A DNA stretch of 43,982 nt, taken from UHGV virus genome UHGV-0179801, one strand, 5' to 3'. Below the pieces are notes generated by a model. It saw only the letters and a list, made by a program, of their open reading frames with translations. It made no database searches and was not told where the DNA came from. This DNA comes from a virus. Positions 2,143-43,203 of the stretch are shown piece after piece. Position 1 is the first letter of the stretch; each line of letters starts with the position of its first letter. A program made the position numbers and the translations under genes.

Positions 2143-3192
2143 TTAAGACCCGACACCAGTTACCAGGAAGGCAATCGGTACATGCTTACGTTCAACAACA
2201 CGGTTCCAGTTAGAGGCGTTCGCCAGGTCCTGCCAGGAAGCGGAGCGCGGGGTAGTCTCGGTGCCGTTGCCAGTGATTACTGCGCTGGTGAAGCTGTAGC
2301 CAAACGGATGCAGCAACCAGGTCTTACGGGTCCACAGGGTTTCAACGCCGCCGCCATTGCCGCGGGACTCTTCACGCTCATAGGCCAGCGGATTGGTTGG
2401 GTTGCCTTCACCATAACCGATAGCGCCGTTGCCGAAGATGATGGAGATGAACTTACGGCTAGGGCCAGTACCGACTACGGTCATGCTGTCGTCAACAATC
2501 ACGCGGTAGCCCTGGTAGGTGGCGAACAGGGTGTCGTTGTCAGCGTTTTTGATGAAGTCGATAAGCTGCTGCTTACGGGCCTGCGCGTATACGAAGCTGT
2601 GCATAGCGATAGTGCCCAGCACTTCACCACCGTTGCCCATCAGCGCGTCACCCATAGTCTGGGTAGCGTCGATGAACGCGCCTGCGTCGAAGCCCAGAGT
2701 AGAGGACACGTCGATTACCATGTCGTTCTGCTCGTGATATGCGTCGGTGGCGGCTACGTTGTCATTGTACAGACCGAGCGCGGTGGCGATCAGACGGCGT
2801 TGTGCCTGGCGCTGCCAGAAGTTATCCAGGCGGGATGCTACGGATTGCAGCGGGTTCTGGCTGGTCAGTTCTACCGTCAAATCCGCCTGACCAAAGCCTT
2901 CGTTCAGGTACGCAACGCGGGCCATCATCTCACCGGTCTGCACATTACGCGGGGTAGCGATGTCCTGGTATACGTCGTTCGAGTAGTTCGGCTCGATAGA
3001 GGTATCAATCGCTTTCCAGAAAGGAATATTAGCGATGTTGGACGGGCCGCGGGCAATCTCGGCAGCGTACGGAGTCGGAGTCAGAATACCGGACTGGAAG
3101 AACGCGGTTTTTTCTACCGGGTCCTCGGTCATATAAGATGCCAGGACCGGGATGTTGCCAGTTACGATATCGCCGATAGTGGTAATTGCCAT
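2143..3192 (-). CDS. major capsid protein
   Basis: 349-aa ORF directly after the scaffold gene; AGGAA RBS; size and position typical of an HK97-fold capsid protein. Confidence 0.7.
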   Translation of the reverse strand: MAITTIGDIVTGNIPVLASYMTEDPVEKTAFFQSGILTPTPYAAEIARGPSNIANIPFWKAIDTSIEPNYSNDVYQDIATPRNVQTGEMMARVAYLNEGFGQADLTVELTSQNPLQSVASRLDNFWQRQAQRRLIATALGLYNDNVAATDAYHEQNDMVIDVSSTLGFDAGAFIDATQTMGDALMGNGGEVLGTIAMHSFVYAQARKQQLIDFIKNADNDTLFATYQGYRVIVDDSMTVVGTGPSRKFISIIFGNGAIGYGEGNPTNPLAYEREESRGNGGGVETLWTRKTWLLHPFGYSFTSAVITGNGTETTPRSASWQDLANASNWNRVVERKHVPIAFLVTGVGS

Positions 3193-4474: not shown

Positions 4475-4793
4475 GTTTCTCCTTTCTCGATAAGTAAAGC
4501 CCCGCCATAAAGCGGGGCGCTAGTCCTTATCATTTAAACATAGAAACGGCGTAATCTCAGTAAACCAGTTACTTTTTACACAAGCAATAGATTATGGCCC
4601 TTCCGAACGCGTCAGCGTAACTACACTCAGGACTTACGTCCCGCTCCGTTACCTGCCCGCGCCGCGGTCGCTTGTTCATACTTCACAAGCTCAGGTGGAG
4701 CTTAGCACATTTTTAGTGAAAAGTCAACTATTCGAATAGTTTATTCCAAGATTTACAATTCGGTGGAATAACTGGGATACCTAACCAAATAGT

Positions 4794-4822
4794 TTGCACA
4801 CACCAATATAATAGGGTACTAT
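4794..4822 (+). promoter_or_regulatory. sigma70-like promoter TTGCAC-N17-TACTAT with AATAG-N4-CTATT inverted repeat
   Basis: Conserved 25-nt block caccaatataatagggtactattca (4801-4825), near-identical at 6608 and 40231, followed by the conserved leader tcgaaacgaggaga and an ATG. Confidence 0.55.
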
Positions 4823-4850
4823 TCATTACATCGAAACGAGGAGATGAAAA

Positions 4851-5024
4851 ATGTTCAAAGAAAAAGACATAATGCACGAAAACGGCAAATACTGGGTTCT
4901 AAATGATAAAGGAGTGTACTGCGTAATGATTTCCGGGTTTACCCACGCTAAAGCTGATAGTGCATACGCTAGTTTAGATTTAGCGATAGCCCGCTGTGAT
5001 TATCTGGCGAGTAGAGACGCATAA
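4851..5024 (+). CDS. small moron protein (57 aa), hypothetical
   Basis: ATG 4851 after the conserved promoter/leader (gaggagatgaaaaATG); opposite strand to the flanking late genes; followed by a terminator hairpin. Confidence 0.5.
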   Translation: MFKEKDIMHENGKYWVLNDKGVYCVMISGFTHAKADSAYASLDLAIARCDYLASRDA

Positions 5025-5027
5025 ACT

Positions 5028-5050
5028 AAGGCCCCGTAATGGGGCCTTTT
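5028..5050 (+). terminator. rho-independent terminator (AAGGCCCC-gtaat-GGGGCCTT-TT)
   Basis: Perfect 8-bp GC-rich stem, 5-nt loop, T-run; member of a conserved hairpin family recurring at 7183, 30767 and 42010. Confidence 0.6.
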
Positions 5051-6556: not shown

Positions 6557-6600
6557 ATGCCCTCCTGTAGTATCGACAGTGTAACGCATAAAAATAATAT

Positions 6601-6629
6601 TTGCAGACACCAATATAATAGGGTACTAT
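6601..6629 (+). promoter_or_regulatory. sigma70-like promoter TTGCAG-N17-TACTAT (conserved family)
   Basis: Same 25-nt block as at 4801 and 40231, followed by the conserved leader tcgaaacgaggagatgagaaATG. Confidence 0.55.
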
Positions 6630-6656
6630 TCAGTTATCGAAACGAGGAGATGAGAA

Positions 6657-7178
6657 ATGGTTACTACAGTAATTACTTTCCCTGCGTATGTAGGGGCGAA
6701 AATCTGCAGGGCGAAAAATGATGTGCGCTATTATTTGAACGCTTTTTACATAGACCCTGAAGGATTGATAGTTTCTACGGATGGTCACAGATTGTTCTGC
6801 GACAACGTGAAGACAAACGTCGAAACTGGAGTTCTAATAGACATCAAAGGGAGGGAGCCTTCTAAATTTAACTACGCGGAGGTAGACCACGACAACGGTA
6901 GTGTTTCTTTCTATGACGATAGTAGTGCGCTTGTATGTACACTTCCTATTGAAGTTGTAGACGGGAGATTTCCTTACTGGAGACGTGTGGCCGGCATTAC
7001 GCCGGGTTCAGTCGATAGCATAGGGTTCTCTCTGCGCTATTTGGCGGACGCGTACAAGATTTCTAAGGCATACAAAAATGAAATTGCCCGTTTCGATTTC
7101 CAGGACCAAACAAACGGATGCAAAATATCATTTTCAAACACTGCATTTATGGTGCTAATGCCAGCGCGATTTAAATAA
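6657..7178 (+). CDS. truncated DnaN-like (beta sliding clamp) protein, 173 aa
   Basis: Matches to recalled E. coli DnaN: NDVRYYLN (DnaN DVRYYLNG), STDGHRL (ATDGHRLA), VVDGRFPYWRRV (LVDGRFPDYRRV), SIGFSLRYLAD (EIGFNVSYVLD), C-terminal AFMVLMPARFK (AYVVMPMRL). Roughly half DnaN length; own promoter and terminator. Confidence 0.7.
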   Translation: MVTTVITFPAYVGAKICRAKNDVRYYLNAFYIDPEGLIVSTDGHRLFCDNVKTNVETGVLIDIKGREPSKFNYAEVDHDNGSVSFYDDSSALVCTLPIEVVDGRFPYWRRVAGITPGSVDSIGFSLRYLADAYKISKAYKNEIARFDFQDQTNGCKISFSNTAFMVLMPARFK

Positions 7179-7182
7179 AACT

Positions 7183-7208
7183 AAGGCCCCGAAAGGGGCC
7201 TTTTCTTT
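7183..7208 (+). terminator. rho-independent terminator (AAGGCCCC-gaaa-GGGGCCTT-TTCTTT)
   Basis: 8-bp stem, GAAA loop, T-run, directly after the stop at 7176-7178; same hairpin family as 5028. Confidence 0.6.
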
Positions 7209-8679
7209 ACTCCTGTTGCTGCTGCGCCGACTGCGGAATCTCTCCTGCTACCTGAGTAACAGCACCCAATGGCAACGGTGCATCTTCGATAGCGTTCTGA
7301 ATATCCTCGTCGGTCCAGTCGGTCACACCTGCCTTACGCAACGCCGCATAGTAAGCGGTAGCCGGTAGCAGGCCCGCGTTAATGTCCGCCATCCACTGAG
7401 CGCGGTCCTGGGCGGTCATCGGTTGCAGGAAGAACTCCATATTCAGTTTGAACTCAATCTCTGTGCCTTCACGCAGCCCAAGCATCGCCGCTACCCAGCG
7501 CAACGCATCTGTATACGCCATGCTTACATTACGTGCGATTGTCGCCATGACGGACGTATCCGCACCACGTTGCAGGCGGGCTGATTCGGCGGTGATTTGC
7601 TGCGTCGGGGTGATAAGCTGTGCGCCAATCTGAATTGCCTGATTCTCTTTATCCAGCATGTTCTGTTTGGCGAGGTTGTTCTCTCCCGCCTGAACCAGAA
7701 ACGCATTGCCGCCGTAGCCGATGTTATGGCCTGAACGAGACCCCATGCGCACGCCGTGTGGGTTAGCTTCTTTCCACTGTTCCATGCTCATGTTCTCACC
7801 TGGCGCAATGAACAGAGTGGGCTGGCCTACAACGAAGCTGGACTCCTCATTGTCCGCGCTGTTGCGGAAATGTCCGATATTAAGCTCAGCCAACGGCAGC
7901 AAAGGTGCATCATCAATGGTTGCGTCGTTGTTGCTCGCCCCAATGAACGTGAACGGTATTTTACCGCGCAGCTGTTCTCCGAGTTCCGGGAAGATTTCGA
8001 TTACGTCACCCTGAGCACCACCTTCGGCGTCGAAGCGGTAAATGCGCTGGCGGTAGCGCCCGTCAATCAAATCGAGAACGCGGTATTGTTCGCCGAATTT
8101 TGTTTCGAACTCCGCGCCCGGTTCTGAGTATTCCCACACCTCACGCAGCACGACCGTTGTCACACGGTTAACAGAACCGATGCGTGTCAGTCGCCAGTTG
8201 ATGATGTTCTCTGCGGTATAGAATGCGATTACCGGGTTTAATAACCCCGCGTTCTGCTCTGCCGCCGTTGCCGCGGCTGTCTCTGGGGCGTCCACCAGCA
8301 ACCCGCCGCGGCCAACCGAGTCAATCTCCATCAGCGTGTCCTGCGCGTGCTGCCACAACCCGACACCAGAACCGTCGGCATTACGTAACAGGTACTCCAG
8401 TTCAGGCGGGATAATTTGCTCGGGGTCTTTACGCATCACTGACCCCACCATCCCGGCCAGAGTACGTTTGGTGAAGTTGTAGCAGATAGCGCCGTTCTCG
8501 TATTCTTCCTGGCGCTGCGCAGCGTAGGTAGGCTCCGGCTCGTTCTTCCCGACGTTGCGAAGATAGCGGATAAGGTCGCCTTCCAGCGCGTGGCGTACCT
8601 TCTGCCATTTATCGAAGTGATGCAGCCATTCCCGGTGTTTTGTTTTAACACCCTGATTCTGACCGTTCATAGTTAACAT
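7207..8679 (-). CDS. portal protein
   Basis: 490-aa ORF immediately downstream of the large terminase gene; AGAGGA RBS; size and position typical of a portal. Confidence 0.7.
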   Translation of the reverse strand: MLTMNGQNQGVKTKHREWLHHFDKWQKVRHALEGDLIRYLRNVGKNEPEPTYAAQRQEEYENGAICYNFTKRTLAGMVGSVMRKDPEQIIPPELEYLLRNADGSGVGLWQHAQDTLMEIDSVGRGGLLVDAPETAAATAAEQNAGLLNPVIAFYTAENIINWRLTRIGSVNRVTTVVLREVWEYSEPGAEFETKFGEQYRVLDLIDGRYRQRIYRFDAEGGAQGDVIEIFPELGEQLRGKIPFTFIGASNNDATIDDAPLLPLAELNIGHFRNSADNEESSFVVGQPTLFIAPGENMSMEQWKEANPHGVRMGSRSGHNIGYGGNAFLVQAGENNLAKQNMLDKENQAIQIGAQLITPTQQITAESARLQRGADTSVMATIARNVSMAYTDALRWVAAMLGLREGTEIEFKLNMEFFLQPMTAQDRAQWMADINAGLLPATAYYAALRKAGVTDWTDEDIQNAIEDAPLPLGAVTQVAGEIPQSAQQQQE

Positions 8680-11000: not shown

Positions 11001-11187
11001 ATTTGCTCTCTCTCTGTTCGTTAAATTAGTGTATGAAGCGTTTTAACTATACTAGCAGGCTATTCACGCGTCAACAACTTCTGTCTGTATCAGTTATATA
11101 GGCCGTGGCGTGGTGCTCTTTTACCGTCGCCACCGTAATGGTCGTTAGCTACGGCTATAACCCAGGCGTTTTGGATGATTAGCATTC

Positions 11188-11367
11188 TCATTTCAAGAAT
11201 CTCAACAGGGCATCGGCAATACCTGATGTTACCAGTCCGAAAAACATAGGCCACCAGATATATCCGGGCAGATTGGTAAATGTTTCTGGCTTAGTACAGA
11301 AAGCCAGTAAAAACGCGAACCAAAACACTATATAACTAATGCTGCTGAGTAATTCTAAAATGCTCAT
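11188..11367 (-). CDS. small membrane protein (59 aa)
   Basis: Not in track; ATG overlaps the upstream stop (ATGA); two hydrophobic segments (ISYIVFWFAFLLAF, WWPMFFGLVTSGIA). Confidence 0.4.
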   Translation of the reverse strand: MSILELLSSISYIVFWFAFLLAFCTKPETFTNLPGYIWWPMFFGLVTSGIADALLRFLK

Positions 11368-11600
11368 TCCCCACCCTCCCCTTTAGCAATACGTTGCTCT
11401 GTTTTAGTGATACCGCGGCGCGTGAATAACACCGGGCTTGTCTTAACGTGCGTCATCAGACGGTTGTTATAAATTACGTGGCGCTCGCAATCAACGTCTT
11501 TGCTGTACTTTGCAATCGTCATTTCGTTGATGCCGGTTTGTCGACATGTCTCCGCCATTGTGCCGAATTCTTTGATCAGGTTCGGAATGCTGGTAATCAA
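11364..11600 (-). CDS. hypothetical protein (78 aa)
   Basis: Track ORF; coupled to the downstream small membrane gene. Confidence 0.45.
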   Translation of the reverse strand: MITSIPNLIKEFGTMAETCRQTGINEMTIAKYSKDVDCERHVIYNNRLMTHVKTSPVLFTRRGITKTEQRIAKGEGGE

Positions 11601-13224: not shown

Positions 13225-13437
13225 TTATCCTGCGTTGAATGAACCTAGTACGATGCCACTTTCTTTTGGTTTCTTGATTTCGGTAACTTTTACGTTATCG
13301 TTGAAGTTATTCATGGTTGTCGGGTCATCCTTAGCGCGTACCAGGCTCAATGCTTCATCCGGGTACTTAGCCCACACCACAAAAGAATCGTATTGGTCAT
13401 AGTCGCACCAGTCAGCTTCTACTAAATATAATTTCAT
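13225..13437 (-). CDS. hypothetical acidic protein (70 aa)
   Basis: Track ORF 13225..13500; internal ATG at 13437 with GGAG RBS preferred. Confidence 0.4.
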   Translation of the reverse strand: MKLYLVEADWCDYDQYDSFVVWAKYPDEALSLVRAKDDPTTMNNFNDNVKVTEIKKPKESGIVLGSFNAG

Positions 13438-13521
13438 CTTCTCTACTCCGTTCTCGTTGTCGATGAAAGTAAATATAGTAGGGTCGAGGATAATAGTCAA
13501 CTAGTCATTACAGAAAATAGA

Positions 13522-15738: not shown

Positions 15739-15995
15739 TTCTCCTGTTTACCAAGTCGCTTAGGTGAGCAGATAGCGCGTACCTCTGAATCGTTGGGCTT
15801 GTCACCCTGAAACAAGAAATGCGCGTTCTCTGCGGCGCGTGCCGCTGACTGGCACGCCTCCATCGAGTAAAACGTTTCTGATGCCGCCAGGTGCATCTGG
15901 CCTGCGGACAGTACCCAGATAAAGAGGATGCTGGTCATTTCTTTAACCCGCATTTCTTGCACATCATCGATGTGCCTATATCGTAAAAGTACCAA
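15735..15995 (-). CDS. hypothetical protein, possible signal peptide
   Basis: Track ORF; internal hydrophobic MTSILFIWVLSAGQMHLAAS suggests a shorter secreted product starting at ATG 15938. Confidence 0.4.
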   Translation of the reverse strand: MVLLRYRHIDDVQEMRVKEMTSILFIWVLSAGQMHLAASETFYSMEACQSAARAAENAHFLFQGDKPNDSEVRAICSPKRLGKQEK

Positions 15996-16417
15996 TCGTG
16001 TTCACACTCGCTGGATTTAGTCACGCCGCAATTAATACATACGGCGTGAGCCTTGCCGTTAACAAATCGCCAGTTATGGTGACATTCCTGCGTATCCTCT
16101 TTACGGCAACCAGATTGCTCCGGCAGTACCGGCGTCGGGATACACCGACAATTTACCGTTGCCCCGGGCACGTGTTCGCCCACCACGTAGCGCTGACCCG
16201 CGGGAATGTATCCACCCTTGCGGATAAATTTATATGCCTCAACGTCCCCGTTCATTAACGTTATTGTCCCCATCAACTCGTCCACCAGCTCCGACATATC
16301 ACGTAGCTGATTCTTAAGTGACTGCACCTCCTGCGCCAGGTCTTCGCACTGGTTGTTATTTACCTGCTGCCGTAGCTGGTCAATCAGGTACTCGAATACT
16401 TCGTTTTTGTTACTCAT
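15935..16417 (-). CDS. coiled-coil plus Cys-rich zinc-ribbon protein (160 aa)
   Basis: ATG 16417 with conserved leader AAACGAGAGGAGAGACAGAAG; C-terminal CxxC pairs (CINCG, CKKCG) and CRC/CHH motifs. Confidence 0.5.
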   Translation of the reverse strand: MSNKNEVFEYLIDQLRQQVNNNQCEDLAQEVQSLKNQLRDMSELVDELMGTITLMNGDVEAYKFIRKGGYIPAGQRYVVGEHVPGATVNCRCIPTPVLPEQSGCRKEDTQECHHNWRFVNGKAHAVCINCGVTKSSECEHDWYFYDIGTSMMCKKCGLKK

Positions 16418-16436
16418 CTTCTGTCTCTCCTCTCGT

Positions 16437-16709
16437 TTACTCAACAGCACCTGTTATTGCTATAAGCCCAGTTTTACCCCGGCGGCGGTACTTACGAATC
16501 ACCGTTTTAAGTTCGTCATTACTACTCTGATGCCCAAAAGTGATCGGCAACTCTTCCCCACCTGTCATACCAAACTCGGTGTCTGTCGGTTTGTTCCGCC
16601 ACCCCTGAATAAAACCGAAACGGTCGCGAGTTATATACCGGTAGTTGTTAGGGAGGGGCAATTCCAGCCCCTCAAAATCAACGGTAACGGTGTAGCTGCT
16701 AAAATTCAT
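16437..16709 (-). CDS. hypothetical protein (90 aa)
   Basis: Track ORF 16437..16715 (TTG); ATG at 16709 used. Confidence 0.45.
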   Translation of the reverse strand: MNFSSYTVTVDFEGLELPLPNNYRYITRDRFGFIQGWRNKPTDTEFGMTGGEELPITFGHQSSNDELKTVIRKYRRRGKTGLIAITGAVE

Positions 16710-16848
16710 AGTCAATTACCCCGAACTCGTTGATGATTTGCGCCTTGTAGAAGTTGCCGTTTGAGGCCAGGTGATACGCCTGCGCCATAGTCATCTCGCG
16801 ATAAGTTGCGGTGCTATTTTCAAACTCCATAACCATCAAAGTAACCAT
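16699..16848 (-). CDS. small hypothetical protein (49 aa)
   Basis: Not in track; ATG 16848 with the same conserved leader AAACGAGAGGAGAGACAGAAG, directly downstream of a promoter. Confidence 0.35.
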   Translation of the reverse strand: MVTLMVMEFENSTATYREMTMAQAYHLASNGNFYKAQIINEFGVIDYEF

Positions 16849-16879
16849 CTTCTGTCTCTCCTCTCGTTTGTGCAAATGA

Positions 16880-16908
16880 ATAGTAACCTATTCTATCCCA
16901 GTGAGCAA
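16880..16908 (-). promoter_or_regulatory. sigma70-like promoter TTGCTC-N17-TACTAT (minus strand) with AATAG-N4-CTATT repeat
   Basis: Minus-sense reads TTGCTC-17 nt-TACTAT then the conserved leader and an ATG; inverted repeat at 16879-16892. Confidence 0.5.
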
Positions 16909-16979: not shown

Positions 16980-17240
16980 TTACGCACCAACCACCCCACA
17001 AAAAGAAACGCCTGGTTTAAGTTTCAGGTTACGTACAACCACCATCTCTACTGAATGGATTGATTCATACCTCGAGTGTCCTCTTCCGTGGCCAAGTTTA
17101 ACCATGCCGCCAGCGACTTCGGTTACTAGCCTCTTCCTCCCGTTGACCAGGACGACATCACTCGGGCGCACATCAGGATGTTTAAGTCTAGCCAGTCTCT
17201 CTTCATATCTGCTCATTGCTGCATCTCCTGCAATAGTCAC
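16980..17240 (-). CDS. hypothetical protein (86 aa)
   Basis: Track ORF; GGAG RBS upstream. Confidence 0.4.
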   Translation of the reverse strand: MTIAGDAAMSRYEERLARLKHPDVRPSDVVLVNGRKRLVTEVAGGMVKLGHGRGHSRYESIHSVEMVVVRNLKLKPGVSFCGVVGA

Positions 17241-17267: not shown

Positions 17268-17307
17268 ACAAAAATGAGAAAAATGGTACGCTGCTGTGTA
17301 GCAGCGT
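17268..17307 (-). terminator. hairpin plus U-tract (minus strand), terminator or attenuator
   Basis: ACGCTGCT/AGCAGCGT 8-bp stem with 4-nt loop, followed on the minus strand by ACCATTTTTCTCATTTTTG. Confidence 0.45.
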
Positions 17308-17330
17308 AAGTCACAAAGCCAAATAGTAAC

Positions 17331-17492
17331 CTATTGACCTATTACACCACCTGTTACACCAGCGCGAAATTGCACACCAGCTTTCCACGCCCGCCACGCG
17401 AGACGCGTCTTAACGTTCAGGTACTCTTTCTTCGAACCTTTGTTAACCGGCAGACCCTCTACGACGGCCCACCGTTCAAATGCTTCTCTCAT
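17331..17492 (-). CDS. small hypothetical protein (53 aa)
   Basis: Not in track; ATG 17492 overlaps the stop of the upstream ORF (ATGA). Confidence 0.3.
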   Translation of the reverse strand: MREAFERWAVVEGLPVNKGSKKEYLNVKTRLAWRAWKAGVQFRAGVTGGVIGQ

Positions 17493-17804: not shown

Positions 17805-18023
17805 TTATTTAAAGTAGATAGCGAATTTCTTGTAACCCGCAGGCTCGTTACGAAGCCCTTTACCATTAGCGAAACGTTGTACGTTGTTAAAATCATTTTC
17901 ATCCATTCCGTCGGTGTCGAACGTAAAGAAGTTGCGTTTGTTCCTGATAATTACGCGCTCTGAAATATCGATACCGTAAACTTCTTTGATTGCTGAAACT
18001 ACGCTTGCAGTCGCTTTGTTCAT
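17805..18023 (-). CDS. hypothetical protein (72 aa), first gene of the leftward block
   Basis: ATG 18023 with AAGGAA RBS, about 35 nt downstream of the conserved promoter. Confidence 0.5.
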   Translation of the reverse strand: MNKATASVVSAIKEVYGIDISERVIIRNKRNFFTFDTDGMDENDFNNVQRFANGKGLRNEPAGYKKFAIYFK

Positions 18024-18056
18024 CTTTAAATTCCTTATGTCTCGTTGCTATAAGTG

Positions 18057-18086
18057 AATAGTATCCTATTATATTGGTGTGTGCAA
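18057..18086 (-). promoter_or_regulatory. sigma70-like promoter TTGCAC-N17-TACTAT (minus strand)
   Basis: Reverse complement of 18054-18086 is ttgcacacaccaatataataggatactattcac, the same conserved block as at 4794, 6601 and 40223. Confidence 0.55.
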
Positions 18087-21555: not shown

Positions 21556-21584
21556 AAAAAAAATAAAGGGGCGTTAAGCCCCTT
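21551..21584 (-). terminator. rho-independent terminator for the XRE gene (minus strand)
   Basis: AAGGGGC/GCCCCTT stem with a 5-nt loop, followed on the minus strand by a >=10-nt T-run. Confidence 0.6.
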
Positions 21585-21789
21585 CACCAAACGCCAGCCA
21601 CTTTGCGTCTACTTGCAGCACTTCCGCCAGCTTGAACAGCGTCGCTGGACGTACGTCCTGAGTTACCCCAAGTGCCAGCTGGTTAATCGCGCCCTGGGAA
21701 ACACCGGCCAGGACAGCCAGACGGCGCTGGGAGATGCCGAGTTCTTTGCGGCGTTGTTCTACACGGATGCCTAGTTCAGATGGTTGCAT
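21574..21789 (-). CDS. XRE-family (Cro/CI-type) HTH transcriptional regulator (71 aa)
   Basis: LGISQRRLAVLAGVSQGAINQL is a classic HTH_3 helix-turn-helix; AAGGAG RBS; transcribed divergently from the early promoter at 21854. Confidence 0.7.
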   Translation of the reverse strand: MQPSELGIRVEQRRKELGISQRRLAVLAGVSQGAINQLALGVTQDVRPATLFKLAEVLQVDAKWLAFGEGA

Positions 21790-21815: not shown

Positions 21816-21840
21816 TGTGAATAGTACCATATTAATTATT
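21816..21840 (-). promoter_or_regulatory. promoter/operator for the XRE gene (TGnTACTAT extended -10, degenerate AATAG-N4-ATATT repeat)
   Basis: Minus-sense aattaatatggTACTATtcac about 25 nt upstream of the XRE start; shares the tgaatagt core with the other promoters. Confidence 0.45.
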
Positions 21841-21853
21841 TTAGAAAAGCCCA

Positions 21854-21882
21854 TTGACATCATGAATAGTTCGCTATTATAG
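21854..21882 (+). promoter_or_regulatory. sigma70-like promoter TTGACA-N15/17-TATTAT/TTATAG with AATAG-TTCG-CTATT repeat
   Basis: Consensus -35 TTGACA; inverted repeat 21865-21878 overlaps the -10; followed by leader ccaaacgagaggagagacaaaATG. Confidence 0.55.
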
Positions 21883-21913
21883 TTAGCCCATACCAAACGA
21901 GAGGAGAGACAAA

Positions 21914-22063
21914 ATGATTAACAACCGCAAAGCAAAGATTCTGTTAGGCCTTGATATTGCATTTGGGGCTAAAGAAACCGCACGCTATCGCGTAAGCAAC
22001 AATCGTGTGGGCTTCTTCGACAAAGCAACAGGCCAGTTAGTTAAAACCGTTAAGTATAAATAA
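21914..22063 (+). CDS. small early protein (49 aa)
   Basis: Not in track; ATG 21914 with GAGGAGAGAC RBS immediately downstream of the early promoter. Confidence 0.4.
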   Translation: MINNRKAKILLGLDIAFGAKETARYRVSNNRVGFFDKATGQLVKTVKYK

Positions 22064-22078
22064 ACAGGAGAGAAACAA

Positions 22079-22531
22079 ATGTTAGAACAATTTCTTAAAT
22101 TACTGGAACGTTTCGTAGTTGCACATGAACTGATTGCCGCGAACAGTGTGAAACAAGTTGTCGTTGCTGAAACTGCAACAATCGCGCCTACTGTTGCAAC
22201 AAAAGAAATCCCGGTCGAAGGTGAAGACGTAGTTGACACTAAACCGGCAGAAGAAGAGAAGCCGAAACGCAAGCCGCGTAAAGCTAAAGTAGAGGAACCT
22301 ACGCCAGAGCCAGAAGAAGAAGTCGACTACCAGTCTCTGCGCGACCAGATTCAGGCTATCGATGATGCCATTAACGAAGGTCCGAGCGATGCCGCGTGCG
22401 ACGATTCTGATGAACTGCTGGAAGAGTTCACGGGTAAGAAGATGAAGATTGCTGCGATTAAAGACGAAGACCTGGCCGAGTACCTGGAGCGCCTGACGGC
22501 AATCAAGAACAAGTATTTCGAAGAAGAATAA
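22079..22531 (+). CDS. highly acidic early protein (150 aa)
   Basis: ACAGGAGAGAAAC RBS; Glu/Asp-rich low-complexity sequence (EEEKPKRKPRKAKVEEPTPEPEEEVD...DDSDELLEEF). Confidence 0.55.
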   Translation: MLEQFLKLLERFVVAHELIAANSVKQVVVAETATIAPTVATKEIPVEGEDVVDTKPAEEEKPKRKPRKAKVEEPTPEPEEEVDYQSLRDQIQAIDDAINEGPSDAACDDSDELLEEFTGKKMKIAAIKDEDLAEYLERLTAIKNKYFEEE

Positions 22532-24421: not shown

Positions 24422-24447
24422 TTGACACCTGAATAGTTAGCTATTAT
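24422..24447 (+). promoter_or_regulatory. sigma70-like promoter TTGACA-N14/17-TATTAT/TATATT with AATAG-TTAG-CTATT repeat
   Basis: gttgacacctgaatagttagctattatattc upstream of the SSB-like gene. Confidence 0.55.
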
Positions 24448-25146: not shown

Positions 25147-25165
25147 TATCTGAATCAATTTTACT

Positions 25166-25189
25166 AAGGCCCTTCATTGGGCCTTTTTA
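25166..25189 (+). terminator. rho-independent terminator (AAGGCCC-ttcatt-GGGCCTT-TTT)
   Basis: 7-bp stem and T-run about 20 nt after the SSB-like stop. Confidence 0.55.
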
Positions 25190-27761: not shown

Positions 27762-28067
27762 ATGAGCACGCCTGAGGGCCGCGTACAGAAATACGCAAAG
27801 GAGCGATTCGAGGCCATTGGTGGCCTCGTTAGAAAGCTGTCTTATGAGGGTAGAAACGGAGCGCCTGACCTGCTGGTAGTCCTTCCGGGAGGGGTGATAT
27901 GGTTCGTCGAGGTGAAGAAAGACGAAAACACGGAACCGGAGGCCCATCAGTTGCGGGAACACAAACGGCTTCGTAAACGTGACGCAAATGTTTTTGTAGT
28001 AGGAACAAAAGAAGAGGTTGACACCCTAATAGCGAACTATTATAGTAGCCATACACCAACAATATAA
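27762..28067 (+). CDS. VRR-NUC domain nuclease
   Basis: GAPDLLVVLPGGVIWFVEVKK matches the VRR-NUC PD-(D/E)XK signature; GGGAGGGG RBS. Confidence 0.65.
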   Translation: MSTPEGRVQKYAKERFEAIGGLVRKLSYEGRNGAPDLLVVLPGGVIWFVEVKKDENTEPEAHQLREHKRLRKRDANVFVVGTKEEVDTLIANYYSSHTPTI

Positions 28068-30762: not shown

Positions 30763-30766
30763 AGAA

Positions 30767-30793
30767 AAGGCCCCAAACGGGGCCTTAGTTTTA
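30767..30793. terminator. bidirectional rho-independent terminator (AAGGCCCC-aaac-GGGGCCTT)
   Basis: 8-bp stem; T-rich tracts on both strands (agtttta on plus, ttttctct on minus); sits between the convergent replication operon and the tailspike gene. Confidence 0.6.
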
Positions 30794-30795
30794 TG

Positions 30796-32985
30796 CTAAT
30801 TATTATCCTCCACCACCTCAAGAACGCCATTGTTAGAGCGAAGTCTTTTATATGCATTATCACCTACATCACGAACAATAACACCACCAGATGCATACAC
30901 AGTATTGAATCTACCATCCACACCACCGAGGTTCTGAACATTATCGGCAACAGGCGTCAATACACCAGCAACACGATTAGCTTTACGGGCATACCAGACA
31001 TTCTTGCCAACATCTTTATCCATCGGGGTATCAAAGTTAAAACTGGTGCTGTTAGTGGAGAGTCCTGATTCAGATGCAGATGAAGTATCAACAATTAACT
31101 TGAGTGTTCCGCCAGTAAGCCCATCAGACGCAACATACAATTCTGCATTCTTAAAGTTACTTAACCCACCTAACCCATTAGCAAACGTAACCTTGCTGGC
31201 ATCCCCATAAACAATCAGTCTGTTCTCTTTAAACCTTTCAGCATATAACCCGAACGCCACCCCGTCCTGATCATGGATGTCGATGGTTGCATGAGTAATA
31301 TTAATAGTGGGTGGGATACCAAATGTAATGGTGTTCCCTCTAAACTCTTTAACTTTGAAGTTCAAACGATACTCATTGGCATAGTCATTTGCATACCTGT
31401 TCTGAAATTCACAGTCAATGAAGCTATAGCATTCAAGACCCATAGGAGCTGGTGAGCCGGTATCAATAACGCTGCCTATAATGGTTGTACCTACAAACTT
31501 AATATTGCGCGCATTACCTGCGTTAAATACAGCACCGTCAGAGTGCATACTATGTAGCACACCACCAACAACCGTAATATCGTTAACAGTACCTGGTACG
31601 GATACAGTCTGTAATGCACCCTTACCTGTGTTAACAATTTTAGGGTTAATGATTCTAATGTTGTAAGGGTTGCCTCCTTCAGCCTCAATATCAATACCTG
31701 CTTCTGGACCAGAGAAGTGCGTACCAATGCCTGTTGCCAGACGACCAGATCTGGTAATGATTGGATTGATAATGTCAATGTTTGCACCGCCGGTTAATGA
31801 ATAGCAATTACGCCCACAATCCTGAAACACGCAGGTGTCCACTACTGTATTAGGGATGATGTCAAGAAAACTTCTTTCACCAGTGGCTTGCATATGAAGA
31901 CCATCAACAGCGGAGTTTTTAAAGGTGTGTCGCGCTATCTGAAATCCTTCTGACTGATTCACCCACATGTTATATGCTGGCACTTGATACCCTGTATTGC
32001 CGTACTTCCCACCCCACTGAAGGTTAACAAGGTTTCCATCTGTAGCACCGTTTTTTATTTCCACATTAGGCGCAAGATAAATTTTTATCAGATAACCAGT
32101 TGATGCGAGGTAATTTGCATCAGGAGTCTCAGAAACAACATCGGATGCAGGATTTCCGGTTACAGGGTCGTAAGCGCCTACCCTAAGCCCACTATTTAAT
32201 TTCAAGGTCCATCCCGACATATCCAAAATTATTTTTTGATTTGTTTGCGCGACGGAAAACCACCCCATAGCAGAAGGATCTGACCATGAACGAGATTGAT
32301 AAGATGGCCGGTATGAATACCCCAATCCATATGCACCAGCTAATTGCTGAGAGCCTACGAGACTGACACCTGAAGGAAATACTACGTATAGAGGCTCTGT
32401 GGATGAGGATAAATATTGACCTAGCGCCCAAAGAGCGTCTGCATTGTCGGAAGAATCAGTTTTTACACCAAAATCCTCTGCATAGATGACTCGGATATTT
32501 ATTTTATCCAATGCGGCAGTGACTGTTTCTGCAATTAACGATTTGGGGTTTTTGTACCCTATCAACGACCCGCCGTCAGGGGCCTCCGTAGACGATAATT
32601 GTGATCGTAAATCAGGGTCTGTCTGCGGTTTCCAGTCCGCATTACCAACAGGGTTAAAACCAGCCGGAACCGTAACTGGAAGCGTACCTGCATACGAATA
32701 CCACGTTTTACTTACAGGGTCGTAGACAACTTTGCCTCGGTCGTTAGCCGTGAGAGTGCCTCCGGCGGAAAAGTCCCACGACACAGGCGAAAAGCCAGCG
32801 TCGCGCAACACGGCAGGGAGTGTCTTCTGTGTCTGCCCCGTAACGGCGTTTGTCGCGTAGTCGATATCTGCGCCACCAGCAACACCCCCGGATTTACCTG
32901 TAATAACCTCGGCTTCGAAAATCTGGTGTTTCTTGGCGGTCTGTAAATCCGCCAGGCTTAAAACGTCACCACATCCGCTTGACAT
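30796..32985 (-). CDS. tailspike / tail fibre protein with beta-helix-type repeats (putative depolymerase)
   Basis: 729 aa at the distal end of the tail module; AAAGAGGA RBS; Gly/Asn/Thr-rich repetitive body typical of right-handed beta-helix receptor-binding proteins. Confidence 0.7.
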   Translation of the reverse strand: MSSGCGDVLSLADLQTAKKHQIFEAEVITGKSGGVAGGADIDYATNAVTGQTQKTLPAVLRDAGFSPVSWDFSAGGTLTANDRGKVVYDPVSKTWYSYAGTLPVTVPAGFNPVGNADWKPQTDPDLRSQLSSTEAPDGGSLIGYKNPKSLIAETVTAALDKINIRVIYAEDFGVKTDSSDNADALWALGQYLSSSTEPLYVVFPSGVSLVGSQQLAGAYGLGYSYRPSYQSRSWSDPSAMGWFSVAQTNQKIILDMSGWTLKLNSGLRVGAYDPVTGNPASDVVSETPDANYLASTGYLIKIYLAPNVEIKNGATDGNLVNLQWGGKYGNTGYQVPAYNMWVNQSEGFQIARHTFKNSAVDGLHMQATGERSFLDIIPNTVVDTCVFQDCGRNCYSLTGGANIDIINPIITRSGRLATGIGTHFSGPEAGIDIEAEGGNPYNIRIINPKIVNTGKGALQTVSVPGTVNDITVVGGVLHSMHSDGAVFNAGNARNIKFVGTTIIGSVIDTGSPAPMGLECYSFIDCEFQNRYANDYANEYRLNFKVKEFRGNTITFGIPPTINITHATIDIHDQDGVAFGLYAERFKENRLIVYGDASKVTFANGLGGLSNFKNAELYVASDGLTGGTLKLIVDTSSASESGLSTNSTSFNFDTPMDKDVGKNVWYARKANRVAGVLTPVADNVQNLGGVDGRFNTVYASGGVIVRDVGDNAYKRLRSNNGVLEVVEDNN

Positions 32986-40115: not shown

Positions 40116-40222
40116 TCTTTGATCCTTTGGTTAAGAGGTTACAGGTTAAGGGAAATGCGCCAGACGGGAACCACCCGCTTTTCGTGTGCGACACTAGGCG
40201 CAAACTTATTCTAGCACACTAC

Positions 40223-40251
40223 TTGCACACCCCAATATAATAGGGTACTAT
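40223..40251 (+). promoter_or_regulatory. sigma70-like promoter TTGCAC-N17-TACTAT (conserved family)
   Basis: acttgcacaccccaatataatagggtactattca, the same block as at 4794 and 6601. Confidence 0.55.
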
Positions 40252-40281
40252 TCACTTACACCAACAATGGAGGAGTTTAAA

Positions 40282-40473
40282 ATGTCAAGTTTACCAGTTT
40301 CCTTAATTCTGTTTGCACTACTCGCTTATTTTGCGCCTTTCCTGGTTGCATATTTCCGCAACCATAAAGCGAAGTTAGCGATATTCATGGCTAACCTGTT
40401 TCTTGGCTGGATTCTGCTGCCGTGGGTATTTATTTTAATCTGGGCTTGCAACTCGAATGTCAAAGAGAAGTGA
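40282..40473 (+). CDS. small membrane protein (63 aa)
   Basis: ATG 40282 after GGAGGAG RBS; two hydrophobic helices (LPVSLILFALLAYFAPFLVAYF, LFLGWILLPWVFILIWA). Confidence 0.5.
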   Translation: MSSLPVSLILFALLAYFAPFLVAYFRNHKAKLAIFMANLFLGWILLPWVFILIWACNSNVKEK

Positions 40474-42005: not shown

Positions 42006-42009
42006 GAAA

Positions 42010-42036
42010 AAGGCCCCTTTCGGGGCCTTAGTTTTA
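42010..42036. terminator. bidirectional rho-independent terminator (AAGGCCCC-tttc-GGGGCCTT)
   Basis: 8-bp stem with T-tracts on both strands, between the rightward cassette and the convergent major tail gene. Confidence 0.6.
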
Positions 42037-43203
42037 TGCGTAGGTGATGCGCTGGATAACAATAGACGACTGATATTGGTTGCCGGTAGCCTGGCCTTCG
42101 ATGGACTGAGTGATTGACTCTGGTCCGCCAATCTCAGGCGTAACCGCCGTAAGCTCTGCGCGTTTCAAACTGAAAGACATAACCCCGTTTACCCCCGCCA
42201 GAATAGAGTTAATCTCTACCTGCTGTTCATTGATAAACTTCTGAATCATCGCCATGTCGTACAGCTTGCCGGAGATGGAGAAGGTGTTAGCCGCGCGACC
42301 ACGTTCCACGAACGCAACGCTACTGTTCCCTAGTTCAAACTGAGCGGATGCGCCGTTGTCGTTGGTGATGGTCAGAGTATCGCAACGCAACGGCGTAGAA
42401 CCGTCGAACACGGACACATCTACAGAAGAGAACGGCTCGTCAGTGAACGTCACCTGGGAGAAATCAGAGCCAGACGGCGGCGCGGTAAGAATCTCCTGAC
42501 TCAGACCGATGAATGGGAAGCTCCCCGTTACCATCGCGTTAACAGCCTGCTCGATAGTAAAACCGGAGATTTCCACGCCTTTGGTCAACATGTACGCGTC
42601 CGGGTTCCCGCACTGACCTTTGAACCATGTCAGGATGGAGAAAGTCTTACATGCATTACCGGTTTCCAGTTTGTCACCGGTTTTTCCATCGGTCTCAATA
42701 GGGCCTTCGGCGGTAAGGGTGTGCTGAATGCCGGCGCCAGTAACCACAGTAGCTGTTACGGCAGTAACGATGAACGGCTTAGAGTTATCGCCAGTTAAAG
42801 CGTCAAAATACAGAAGGTCCCCGACCTCTACACCGTCAGTAATGAAACTGCCAGTGTTGCGGGTGAAAGTTTTTGCTACCGGGTCTACCGTAATACCAAC
42901 AGCGGATAAGGTTACCCCATCCTGCCACGTAGATGTCATCGCACCAGCAAGGAAATCATCCTGACTACGGGAGCTAAGCTCAATGGCATACTCCCCGCTA
43001 ACCTGTTTGTTACCGGTGCGGATAGATGTAGTTTCACGGCTGCCGTCCAGTTCGTTGGAAGTCAGCGCATCGCGGGTTACAGCGGGAACACCGCCGGTGT
43101 TACGCAACGGCGACCATACCGGGTTACTTGGTGTTACGCCAGGGGTCACTTCCGCCACATAGAATTGCGCGGTATTCGCGCCCTTAAAAGGAGTTGTAGC
43201 CAT
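42034..43203 (-). CDS. major tail protein
   Basis: 389 aa; AAGAGG RBS before ATG 43203; first large gene of the tail block after the neck genes, followed by a strong terminator. Confidence 0.6.
   Translation of the reverse strand: MATTPFKGANTAQFYVAEVTPGVTPSNPVWSPLRNTGGVPAVTRDALTSNELDGSRETTSIRTGNKQVSGEYAIELSSRSQDDFLAGAMTSTWQDGVTLSAVGITVDPVAKTFTRNTGSFITDGVEVGDLLYFDALTGDNSKPFIVTAVTATVVTGAGIQHTLTAEGPIETDGKTGDKLETGNACKTFSILTWFKGQCGNPDAYMLTKGVEISGFTIEQAVNAMVTGSFPFIGLSQEILTAPPSGSDFSQVTFTDEPFSSVDVSVFDGSTPLRCDTLTITNDNGASAQFELGNSSVAFVERGRAANTFSISGKLYDMAMIQKFINEQQVEINSILAGVNGVMSFSLKRAELTAVTPEIGGPESITQSIEGQATGNQYQSSIVIQRITYA

What the first reader, a model, noticed from the sequence alone, without database searches (positions are those of the whole stretch)
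16415..16440. Identical 21-nt translation-initiation leader reused on several genes
AAACGAGAGGAGAGACAGAAG-ATG occurs at 16415-16440 and 16844-16869 on the minus strand and, with one gap, at 21893-21916 on the plus strand (aaacgagaggagagacaaaATG). A shorter form (gaaacgaggagatga(a/g)aaATG) precedes the ORFs at 4851 and 6657. Reuse of a full Shine-Dalgarno-plus-spacer block on genes on both strands points to modular promoter/leader cassettes or to selection for a specific initiation context.
Basis: seen in the sequence. Interest (0 to 1): 0.35.

Follow-up and report, generated by a model that had tools for sequence, protein, structure and literature searches.

The report
Reused promoter-leader cassette swaps phage genes
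The repeated 21-24-nt block is the untranslated leader of a family of copied promoter cassettes in a Kagunavirus-type E. coli phage, and comparison with relatives suggests that small accessory genes are inserted, lost and exchanged at these copies, as described for the 'PeSL' cassettes of T4-like phages.

Summary
AAACGAGAGGAGAGACAGAAGATG occurs exactly twice (16415-16438 and 16846-16869, minus strand; none expected by chance). A near copy lies at 21895-21916(+), and a shorter form at 4833-4853 and 6639-6659.

The window is a ~44-kb Kagunavirus-like (Guernseyvirinae) coliphage. Four of the five leaders sit just downstream of a repeated sigma70-like promoter that carries a GAATAG-N4-CTATTC palindrome, so each is essentially the 5'UTR of a promoter cassette. 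The fifth (16415-16438) has no promoter.

In related phages the same promoter and leader precede 7-10 unrelated first-gene families at each of three slots (P16, P21R, P13). Control promoters with other leaders always precede the same gene.

Relatives L045 and L039 carry promoter-leader-gene X directly. The window differs by a 431-bp two-gene insert bounded by the two identical leader copies. A second insert (21914-22063) is bounded by partial leader copies.

Two 'moron' slots (4794, 6601) share the promoter-leader at the 5' end and a conserved terminator 4 nt after the stop codon. They hold 16 gene families, four of them in either slot.

Best reading: a PeSL-like regulatory cassette whose leader serves both as ribosome-binding site and as a short homology patch for gene shuffling. 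The recombination step is inferred, not shown. This is a new member of a known kind, of moderate interest.

The parts
16846..16869 (-). Leader copy A: nearly the whole 5'UTR of promoter P16 (SD AGGAG, purine-rich spacer) plus the ATG of gene A
   Evidence: Exact 24-mer. It starts immediately downstream of the promoter block 16870-16908. The homologous AGGAG is annotated as an RBS in phage Shashou (L005 1704-1708).
16870..16908 (-). Promoter P16: TTGCTC (-35, 16903-16908), 17-nt spacer, TACTAT (-10, 16880-16885), with the perfect palindrome GAATAGGTTACTATTC (16878-16893) over the spacer and -10
   Evidence: It is conserved in 24 related loci. A terminator-like hairpin lies upstream at 17287-17308. 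The promoter assignment rests on sequence only.
16699..16848 (-). Gene A (49 aa, DUF7170 / phrog_4653), first gene of the 431-bp insert
   Evidence: It is annotated as a 150-nt CDS in relatives.
16437..16709 (-). Gene B (90 aa, phrog_1972), second gene of the insert. Its stop codon TAA overlaps the start of leader copy B.
   Evidence: alignment A2.
16415..16438 (-). Leader copy B: a promoter-less internal copy, plus the ATG of gene X. It forms a direct repeat with copy A, 431 bp apart.
   Evidence: (D19). L045 positions 7924-7946 align to both window copies (A2).
15935..16417 (-). Gene X (160 aa, phrog_6094, MSNKNEVFEYLI...), a near-universal gene of this operon. It follows the promoter and leader directly in L019, L039, L045 and in Jersey-like phages.
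21854..21916 (+). Promoter P21R (TTGACA-18-TATAGT, palindrome 21864-21879 in the spacer) with leader AAACGAGAGGAGAGACAAA and ATG (21895-21916)
   Evidence: 11 of 12 consensus positions. Conserved in 29 loci with 7 first-gene families.
21914..22063 (+). Inserted 49-aa gene (MINNRKAK..., phrog_1380). It is absent from most relatives, where the leader is fused directly to the next gene.
   Evidence: Alignment A1.
22064..22081 (+). Partial leader copy ACAGGAGAGAAACAA plus the ATG of gene 22079-22531 (MLEQFLK...). It forms a direct repeat with 21902-21916.
   Evidence: GGAGAGAAACAAATG is identical to the 3' part of the canonical P21R leader of L046 and L039.
4791..4853 (+). Moron slot M2: promoter (TTGCAC...TAATAGGGTACTATTC) with the short leader GAAACGAGGAGATGAAAA and ATG
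   Evidence: D2, D20.
4851..5049 (+). M2 cargo gene (57 aa, phrog_20712) and the conserved terminator AAACTAAGGCCCCGTAATGGGGCCTTT (5023-5049)
   Evidence: D5.
6598..6659 (+). Moron slot M1: promoter with the short leader GAAACGAGGAGATGAGAA and ATG
   Evidence: D2, D20, I1.
6657..7204 (+). M1 cargo gene (173 aa, RusA-like by PHROG) and the conserved terminator (7178-7204). The same gene occupies slot M2 in 8 relatives.
   Evidence: (D5).
13435..13506 (-). Promoter P13 (palindrome 13491-13506) with the diverged leader AACGAGAACGGAGTAGAGAAG and ATG (13435-13458)
   Evidence: Seven first-gene families sit behind this leader in 22 contexts.
18021..18086 (-). Promoter P18 (TTGCACACACCAATATAATAGGATACTATTCA) with a leader that keeps only the AACGAGACA part before a gene-specific SD
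   Evidence: I1, I2, I4.
21574..21789 (-). HTH_3 (XRE-type) regulator gene, divergent from P21R. It is a candidate binder of the palindrome (inferred). Its own promoter (palindrome 21819-21834) has a different leader and an invariant gene, so it serves as a control.
   Evidence: (1 family in 31 contexts).

Best explanation
The block is the 5' untranslated leader of a family of copied promoter cassettes in a virulent Kagunavirus-like phage. It consists of an AACGAG box, the Shine-Dalgarno sequence AGGAG, and a purine-rich spacer that runs up to the ATG.

Each cassette has this layout: an AT-rich stretch, a sigma70-like -35 box, a GAATAG-N4-CTATTC inverted repeat in the spacer or over the -10 box, the -10 box, a leader of about 25 nt, and the ATG. 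The leader's first job is to give whatever gene lies behind it a ready-made, unstructured ribosome-binding site.

Its second, inferred job arises because the same 15-60 nt recur at several places in one genome and in all co-infecting relatives. Recombination between copies, by unequal crossover or by excision and reinsertion of small circles, would then insert, delete and exchange small accessory genes precisely at the start codon. It would probably be helped by the phage's own exonuclease/annealase pair.

The promoter-less copy at 16415-16438 is the footprint of one such event. Genes A and B, together with a second leader copy, were placed between the P16 leader and gene X. The reverse event, deletion of A-B in other lineages, is equally possible.

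Shown here: the repeat, the cassette anatomy, the gene variability behind the leader, and indels bounded by leader copies. Inferred: promoter activity and timing, the recombination mechanism and its enzymes, and the operator role of the palindrome.
For: 1. Cassette anatomy. Long repeats join the leader to a promoter-like block (D1, D2, D19, D20, I1-I6, I25). The palindrome has 14 sites within 2 mismatches against 1.2 expected; the 11 traced to a neighbouring gene all lie in promoter-like regions upstream of gene starts. P21R matches the sigma70 consensus at 11 of 12 positions.

2. Same leader, different genes. The loci were chosen through helicase homology and the promoters were found through the palindrome, so selection was blind to the leader. 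Slot P16 has 10 first-gene families in 36 contexts, P21R has 7 in 31, and P13 has 7 in 22. The control promoter P21L has 1 family in 31 contexts.

3. Junction position. The leader is kept up to position -1 in 19 of the 24 slot-family combinations. The other 5 break inside the leader.

4. Indels bounded by leader copies.
- L045 and L039 carry promoter-leader-X, and the window equals that plus 431 bp between two identical 24-mers (A2).
- The window and L041 equal L046/L039 plus a 165-bp gene between GGAGAGACAAAATG and GGAGAGAAACAAATG (A1).
- L047 carries an independent insertion with a second leader copy.

5. The internal copy precedes three different genes in different phages: X, MFLECKS... and MYSEFTLGELVD....

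6. Movement between slots.
- The 173-aa gene sits in M1 in 2 loci and in M2 in 8.
- Three more families occur in both moron slots.
- The AIFG.PQEVC family occurs at P16 (L030, L051) and at P21R (L035, L064, L065).
- A P16-type leader is found at slot P13 in L001.

7. All 36 moron slots also end in the conserved terminator, mostly exactly 4 nt after the stop codon.

8. Relatives annotate an exonuclease and a gp2.5-like annealing protein in this genome type.

9. The layout and the crossover zone (-10 to ATG) match the published description of PeSLs (PMC2839356).
Against: - No experiment here shows recombination at the leader.
- Twenty-four nt is at the lower limit for RecA-type recombination, and the annealase role is only inferred.
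- Replacement of one first gene by another at the same slot could occur through crossovers in the conserved flanks (promoter side and gene X side), without any event in the leader itself.
- Gene X's upstream junction is also exact at its ATG in about 10 different contexts with no conserved sequence. Selection alone can therefore produce precise junctions where there is no spare room.
- Across phages the leader is not clearly more conserved than the adjacent promoter.
- The inverted copies at P16 and P21R have not produced inversions in any of the loci surveyed, so exchange between copies is rare or counter-selected.
- Class I promoters match the sigma70 consensus only weakly (8 of 12 by my count) and were not listed by the scan.
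Confidence: 0.6

Rival explanations
1. Expression element only. The leader is conserved because it is part of a well-tuned promoter and 5'UTR. Genes are swapped by ordinary recombination in the flanking conserved genes or by rare illegitimate events. Selection keeps only the products in which the new gene sits exactly behind the resident ribosome-binding site. The leader has no special role in recombination.
For: The SD is decent (-9.1 kcal/mol) and the leader is unpaired. The leader is no more conserved than the promoter. Gene X shows exact ATG junctions without conserved upstream sequence. Same-slot replacement needs only flank homology.
Against: It does not explain why inserts are bounded by two leader copies in three independent cases. 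It does not explain how genes move between slots with different flanks while keeping the shared leader and terminator. It does not explain why 19 of 24 gene families keep the resident leader up to position -1 although the 5'UTR of about 25 nt leaves room for other junctions.
Confidence: 0.25
2. Regulatory target. The shared leader is the binding site of a phage or host translational regulator, either a protein in the manner of T4 RegA or a small RNA. This regulator would switch all first genes of these operons on or off together, and that role would be why the leader is conserved.
For: The same AACGAG...GGAG sequence lies on the first gene of at least six transcription units in the window. The AACGAG box has no evident role in ribosome binding.
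Against: There is no Rfam family in the window, no significant structure and no complementary sequence elsewhere in the window beyond the copies themselves. The spacer differs between slots (ACAGAAG, ACAAA, TGAAAA). Some genes replace everything after AACGAGA with their own SD. This reading also does not explain the indel footprints.
Confidence: 0.07
3. Site-specific mobility. A dedicated enzyme, such as one of the phage's HNH endonucleases or an unrecognised recombinase, cuts in or near the cassette, and repair copies the neighbouring gene into the cut site. This would be homing-like gene conversion rather than general homologous recombination.
For: HNH endonuclease genes are annotated in relatives. 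Junctions cluster at a few positions: after AACGAG(A), inside the SD, and at the ATG. The PeSL authors left open whether recombination is homologous or site-specific.
Against: The variable cargo genes are small proteins of unknown function, and none of those tested is a nuclease. No integrase or recombinase is annotated in the complete relative. The scattered junction positions fit homology tracts as well as they fit a cut site.
Confidence: 0.05
4. A chance match of purine-rich, low-complexity ribosome-binding sites.
For: The exact 16-mer also occurs in 8 unrelated IMG/VR contigs.
Against: No match is expected in shuffles for the 24-mer. The copies are conserved at orthologous places in dozens of relatives.
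Confidence: 0.01

Closest known systems
PeSL (promoter-early stem-loop) mobile regulatory cassettes of T4-type phages (Arbiol et al. 2010, PMC2839356; Comeau et al. 2014, PMC4122927)
   Same: The order of parts is the same: an AT-rich stretch after the upstream stop codon, a sigma70-like -35/-10, an inverted repeat between -35 and -10 or over the -10, then the SD and ATG. In both cases there are many copies per genome, the copies flank small ORFans in hypervariable regions, and indels between close relatives are bounded by two copies. In PeSLs the crossovers were mapped between the -10 and the ATG, which is where the junctions lie here.
   Different: The phage lineage is unrelated (a 44-kb siphovirus, not a T4-like myovirus) and no sequence homology is claimed. 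The inverted repeat here is only 6+6 bp and AT-rich, so it is more likely a protein operator than an attenuator. One copy here is leader-only, without a promoter. The moron slots have a second conserved handle, a terminator 4 nt after the stop codon. Mini-circles and promoter activity were shown for PeSLs and are untested here.
Morons of lambdoid phages (Juhala et al. 2000; Hendrix et al. 2000; cited from my own knowledge)
   Same: Slots M1 and M2 are single-gene (rarely two-gene) transcription units with their own promoter and terminator. They are set in the opposite orientation between structural genes, and their cargo varies.
   Different: Classical morons carry unrelated promoters and terminators and are seen as one-off insertions. 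Here the promoter-leader and the terminator are the same repeated sequences at every slot, and the same cargo gene appears in different slots.
Conserved boundary or 'linker' sequences between modules of lambdoid phages (Clark et al. 2001; from my own knowledge), and relaxed homologous recombination by phage recombinases (Martinsohn et al. 2008, PMC2327257, listed and not read in full)
   Same: Short conserved sequences at gene borders are proposed as crossover points that generate mosaic genomes.
   Different: Those sequences lie between large functional modules of temperate phages. Here the unit is a complete expression signal in front of single small genes of a virulent phage.
Integron gene cassettes (from my own knowledge)
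   Same: There is one resident promoter and one entry point, interchangeable promoter-less cargo genes, and a possible circular intermediate.
   Different: There is no integrase and no attI/attC sites (one search shows no integrase annotated). Exchange here would run on sequence homology.

Membership tests
PeSL-type mobile regulatory cassette | Repeated many times per genome, in intergenic regions of hypervariable (hyperplastic) gene blocks | tested here: met
   At least 11 palindrome-bearing promoter sites are in the window. The genes behind them vary between relatives.
PeSL-type mobile regulatory cassette | Contains a sigma70-like early promoter (-35 and -10 boxes) | tested here: inconclusive
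   Class II sites match well (TTGACA-18-TATAGT, 11 of 12). Class I sites (TTGCAC-17-TACTAT) match 8 of 12 by my count and fall below the scan threshold. Activity and timing were not measured.
PeSL-type mobile regulatory cassette | Stem-loop sequence between -35 and -10 or overlapping the -10 | tested here: met
   The GAATAG-N4-CTATTC inverted repeat lies in exactly these positions. As RNA it folds only weakly, with z-scores from -1.15 to +1.0, so an attenuator function is doubtful.
PeSL-type mobile regulatory cassette | Shine-Dalgarno sequence and start codon of the downstream gene at the 3' end | tested here: met
   This is the leader itself.
PeSL-type mobile regulatory cassette | Indels between close relatives are bounded by two copies, with one copy left at the empty site | tested here: met
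   Window against L045/L039; window and L041 against L046/L039; L047.
PeSL-type mobile regulatory cassette | Formation of mini-circles by recombination between flanking copies during infection | not testable with these tools
   This needs inverse PCR or long-read sequencing of infected cells.
PeSL-type mobile regulatory cassette | Sequence relatedness to the T4-type PeSL consensus, or residence in a T4-type genome | tested here: not met
   The window is a Guernseyvirinae/Kagunavirus-like siphophage. It is therefore filed as an analogue that works like a PeSL, not as a homologue.
Moron | An extra gene with its own promoter and terminator, inserted between genes of another transcription unit | tested here: met
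   M2 (4791-5049) and M1 (6598-7204) lie on the + strand among minus-strand structural genes. Each has a promoter-like block and a hairpin plus T-run terminator.
Integron | Tyrosine-recombinase integrase with attI/attC recombination sites | tested here: not met
   No integrase is annotated in the complete relative fBC-Eco01. The repeats are promoter, leader and terminator sequences, not attC-like sites.
Translational operator regulon (RegA-like) | A shared RNA motif over the start region that is bound by a repressor | not testable with these tools
   A shared motif is present, but no binding data exist. There is no Rfam hit and no conserved structure.

The most novel reading that the evidence does not exclude
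Guernseyvirinae phages run a homology-based gene-cassette exchange platform. At least five slots per genome share a promoter-leader handle at the 5' end and, in the moron slots, a terminator handle at the 3' end. Small ORFan genes, possibly host-takeover or anti-defence genes, would circulate between slots and between co-infecting phages as excised circles. The reaction would be catalysed by the phage's own exonuclease/annealase on homologies as short as 15-24 nt. That would make PeSL-type shuffling a general, convergently evolved strategy of virulent phages rather than a T4 peculiarity.
Probability: 0.3. Interest if true: 0.6.

Novelty: new member of a known kind. Interest (0 to 1): 0.45.

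Why it matters
This would give a concrete, testable mechanism for how small virulent siphophages, which are widely used in phage-therapy collections, gain and lose accessory genes without wrecking gene expression. Every gene that lands behind the leader is expressed at once.

It would extend the PeSL idea from T4-like myoviruses to an unrelated phage group, which argues for convergent evolution of 'regulatory handles'.

In practice, the cassette pinpoints the accessory-gene slots where host-takeover or anti-defence candidates should be sought. It also offers natural insertion sites for engineering: promoter and leader at the 5' end, and a terminator 4 nt after the stop codon.

Finally, it corrects a published attribution. 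The palindrome motif was reported as a promoter for a phage-encoded RNA polymerase, but no such polymerase gene is annotated in that genome.

Tried and rejected
- **Paralogy of the downstream genes.** The proteins after the two identical leaders are unrelated by eye. The protein from 21914-22063 and the one from 11364-11600, whose leaders look alike, give no BLASTP alignment.
- **Structured RNA or a known RNA family.** There are no Rfam hits in the window, and the folds are not better than shuffles.
- **An exceptional ribosome-binding site.** The duplex energy and accessibility are good but ordinary.
- **A hidden promoter in front of the internal copy.** None is seen in the sequence upstream of 16438, and no palindrome lies within 70 nt.
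- **Exact-match scan of IMG/VR with the 16-mer**. This sample is biased toward conserved leaders, so I repeated the survey with loci chosen by helicase or head-protein homology.
- **My own crude gene finder**. It mis-called several genes, including gene A, so gene coordinates were taken from the ORF listing and from the annotation of relatives.
- **Literature on Kagunavirus promoters or morons**. I found only the PHIRE motif report for fBC-Eco01 and nothing on the leader or on cassette shuffling.
- **PMC8614997, phage breeding**. It contains no Kagunavirus recombination data.

Full report
**What the window is**

A 10-kb piece of the window matches 456 phage records at 80-95% identity. Nearly all are Escherichia or Salmonella siphophages of the Kagunavirus/Jerseyvirus group (Guernseyvirinae) with genomes of 42-45 kb (taxonomy lines). 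The 43,982-base window is therefore essentially a whole genome of such a phage.

**The observation**

- The 24-mer AAACGAGAGGAGAGACAGAAGATG occurs exactly twice, at 16415-16438 and 16846-16869 on the minus strand. None is expected in shuffled sequence.
- A near copy, AAACGAGAGGAGAGACAAAATG, lies at 21895-21916 on the plus strand.
- The short form GAAACGAGGAGATGA(A/G)AAATG lies at 4833-4853 and 6639-6659.

**Anatomy**

The repeat search shows that four of the five leaders are the 3' ends of longer repeats (D1, D2, D20, I1-I6). Just upstream lies a promoter-like block with a 16-bp inverted repeat, GAATAG-N4-CTATTC. This palindrome has 14 sites in the window within 2 mismatches, against 1.2 expected. 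The 11 sites I could assign to a neighbouring gene all lie in promoter-like regions upstream of gene starts.

Two layouts exist:
- TTGACA-17/18-TATAGT with the palindrome in the spacer. P21R at 21854-21883 is an example and matches 11 of 12 consensus positions.
- TTGCAC-17-TACTAT with the palindrome over the spacer and the -10 box. This layout is found at P16 (16870-16908), P18, M1, M2 and 40222. It matches only 8 of 12 positions by my count.

With a start site about 7 nt after the -10 box, the repeated block would be almost the entire 5'UTR. This is an inference.

An AACGAG box precedes the SD in six of the eleven promoter sites, and the site at 11050 has a partial AACGA. Diverged leaders of the same family lie at 13435-13458 and 18021-18046.

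The fifth leader (16415-16438) has no promoter. It starts within the stop codon of the upstream gene B.

**Comparative evidence**

In five relatives taken from GenBank, the internal copy is followed by three different genes: gene X, MFLECKS... and MYSEFTLGELVD.... An exact-match scan of IMG/VR showed the same promoter and leader in front of many unrelated genes.

That scan selects for conserved leaders. I therefore collected 42 loci through homology to the helicase-primase and found the promoters through the palindrome alone. After clustering the first proteins with BLASTP, the counts were:

| Slot | First-gene families | Contexts |
|---|---|---|
| P16 | 10 | 36 |
| P21R | 7 | 31 |
| P13 | 7 | 22 |
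| P21L (control, HTH regulator) | 1 | 31 |

The P28 promoter also keeps one gene and has a different leader. The resident leader is retained up to position -1 in 19 of the 24 slot-family combinations. The other five break inside the leader, after AACG, GAGAGG(A), GGAGAGA or AAAC.

**Footprints of insertion or deletion**

- L045 and L039 carry promoter-leader-gene X. L045 positions 7924-7946 align to both window copies. The window therefore equals that arrangement plus 431 bp (genes A and B and a second leader) between two identical 24-mers (alignment A2).
- L001 has the same A-B-leader unit followed by a different gene.
- At P21R, most relatives fuse the leader directly to the MLEQFLK gene. 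The window and L041 carry an extra 49-aa gene bounded by GGAGAGACAAAATG and GGAGAGAAACAAATG (alignment A1).
- L047 shows a third, independent insertion with a duplicated leader.
- In Jersey-like Salmonella phages gene X follows a P16-like promoter with an AACGAGAGGAG leader, which suggests that promoter-leader-X is the older state.

**The short form**

Seventy-five loci collected through the head protein show that the two cassettes at 4791-4853 and 6598-6659 head moron-like units.

- All 36 slots found in relatives have the promoter-leader at the 5' end. All 36 also have the terminator AAACTAAGGCCCC-N3-5-GGGGCCTTTT, mostly exactly 4 nt after the stop codon.
- The slots hold 16 unrelated gene families.
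- Four families occur in either slot. The window's 173-aa RusA-like gene sits in M1 in 2 loci and in M2 in 8.
- One gene can be joined to either of two leader alleles.
- The sequence just beyond the terminator is specific to the slot, so the 3' junction lies within the terminator.

**What the genes are**

The cargo genes are small proteins of unknown function: DUF7170/phrog_4653, phrog_1972, phrog_6094, phrog_1380 and phrog_20712. The exception is the RusA-like protein. The gene divergent from P21R is an HTH_3/XRE regulator and is a plausible binder of the palindrome.

**Function as an initiation region**

The SD pairs with the 16S rRNA tail at -9.1 kcal/mol. The -18..+3 region is unpaired with probability about 0.63, against 0.50 +/- 0.12 for all genes. 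No significant structure and no Rfam family is present. The leader is therefore a good, context-independent ribosome-binding site, but not an unusual one.

**Interpretation**

The leader belongs to a copied expression cassette and marks the 5' joint of gene slots that turn over fast. I think recombination between cassette copies is the most likely source of the indels and the slot changes. Three findings point that way:
- Inserts are bounded by two copies.
- Cargo moves between slots whose only shared sequence is the cassette (and the terminator).
- Nearly all cargo families keep the resident leader up to the ATG, although the 5'UTR leaves room for other junctions.

Relatives encode an exonuclease and a gp2.5-like annealing protein. 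These could act on such short homologies, but that is an inference.

Several points weigh against this reading:
- Same-slot replacement needs only flank homology.
- Gene X shows exact ATG junctions without conserved upstream sequence.
- The leader is not more conserved than the promoter.
- No inversion between the inverted P16 and P21R copies is seen.
- Nothing here was tested experimentally.

**Comparison with what is known**

The layout matches the published description of PeSLs in T4-type phages: an AT-rich region, a sigma70-like promoter, a stem-loop between -35 and -10 or over the -10, and the SD and ATG at the 3' end. The published crossovers between the -10 and the ATG, and the indels bounded by two copies, match as well (PMC2839356, PMC4122927).

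The phage lineage and the sequences are unrelated, so this is an analogue and not a homologue. M1 and M2 also fit the definition of morons.

For Kagunaviruses I found only one relevant report. The fBC-Eco01 paper lists the motif tgAATAGTa-ccTATTat-T as seven 'phage RNA polymerase promoters' predicted by PHIRE (PMC9825357). No RNA polymerase gene is annotated in that genome, and the sites carry sigma70-like boxes, so the attribution is doubtful. No paper I could find describes the leader or cassette-bounded shuffling in this group.

**Verdict**

The element is best described as a PeSL-like regulatory cassette of Guernseyvirinae. It is a new member of a known kind, of moderate interest (0.45). 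The recombination role is well supported by comparative footprints but untested.

Noticed in passing
window 4809-4824, 6616-6631, 11050-11065, 13491-13506, 16878-16893, 18056-18071, 21819-21834, 21864-21879, 24431-24446, 28027-28042, 40238-40253: The 16-bp palindrome GAATAG-N4-CTATTC has 14 sites against 1.2 expected, and the listed ones overlap the spacer or -10 box of promoter-like sites. It looks like the operator of a dimeric regulator. The divergently transcribed HTH_3 protein (21574-21789, minus strand), which has two sites in its own control region, is the obvious candidate. The fBC-Eco01 paper reports the same motif as a promoter for a phage RNA polymerase (PMC9825357), but no such polymerase is annotated in that genome.
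   Followed up: partly
window 5023-5049, 7178-7204, 25161-25187, 30765-30796, 42008-42039: A family of near-identical GC-rich hairpin terminators (AAACTAAGGCCCC-N3-5-GGGGCCTTTT). Some are readable in both directions between convergent units. In relatives they sit mostly exactly 4 nt after the stop codon of whatever gene fills the moron slots.
   Followed up: partly
window 4835-4840, 6641-6646, 13453-13458, 16432-16437, 16863-16868, 18041-18046, 21896-21901: An AACGAG box lies upstream of the SD, about 8-25 nt downstream of the palindrome, in most leaders of this promoter family. It is kept even where the rest of the leader is replaced by a gene-specific SD (junction AACGAGA|...). Its function is unknown. 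It could be a left-hand homology patch or an RNA signal.
   Followed up: partly
L001 about 2160-2222 (minus strand), homologous to window 13435-13506: In phage vB_VIPECOTPH05A the P13 slot carries the P16-type leader (AACGAGAGGAGAGACAgagaATG) instead of the P13-type leader (AACGAGAACGGAGTAGAGAAG). The gene behind it is one that has the P13-type leader in L039 and L048. This suggests leader exchange or gene conversion between slots.
   Followed up: partly
window 17287-17336 (minus strand): A degenerate palindrome copy (CAATAGGTTACTATTT, 2 mismatches) is followed at once by a hairpin terminator (17287-17308). The 78-aa ORF after it (16980-17216) has no evident promoter. This may be a decayed cassette.
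   Followed up: no
window 15935-16417 (gene X) and homologues in L032, L037, L044, L045, L052: Gene X is itself a mosaic. BLAST against relatives breaks it into short pieces of 75-97% identity separated by unmatched stretches, and its length ranges from 109 to about 160 aa. Its N-terminus (MSNKNEVFEYLI) is almost invariant.
   Followed up: no
L006, L009, L014-L018, L028 (IMG/VR contigs unrelated to Kagunavirus): The exact 16-mer AACGAGAGGAGAGACA also occurs once in each of 8 unrelated viral contigs, several times just upstream of a start codon. These are most likely chance matches of purine-rich ribosome-binding sites.
   Followed up: no
window 40222-40284 (+): Another class I promoter cassette (TTGCACACCCCAATATAATAGGGTACTATTCA) has a different leader (acttacaccaacaatGGAGGAgtttaaaATG). 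It stands in front of a 63-aa membrane-like protein whose homologue is annotated as a superinfection immunity protein in fBC-Eco01. The 'caccaacaat' leader is shared with the promoter at 28027.
   Followed up: no
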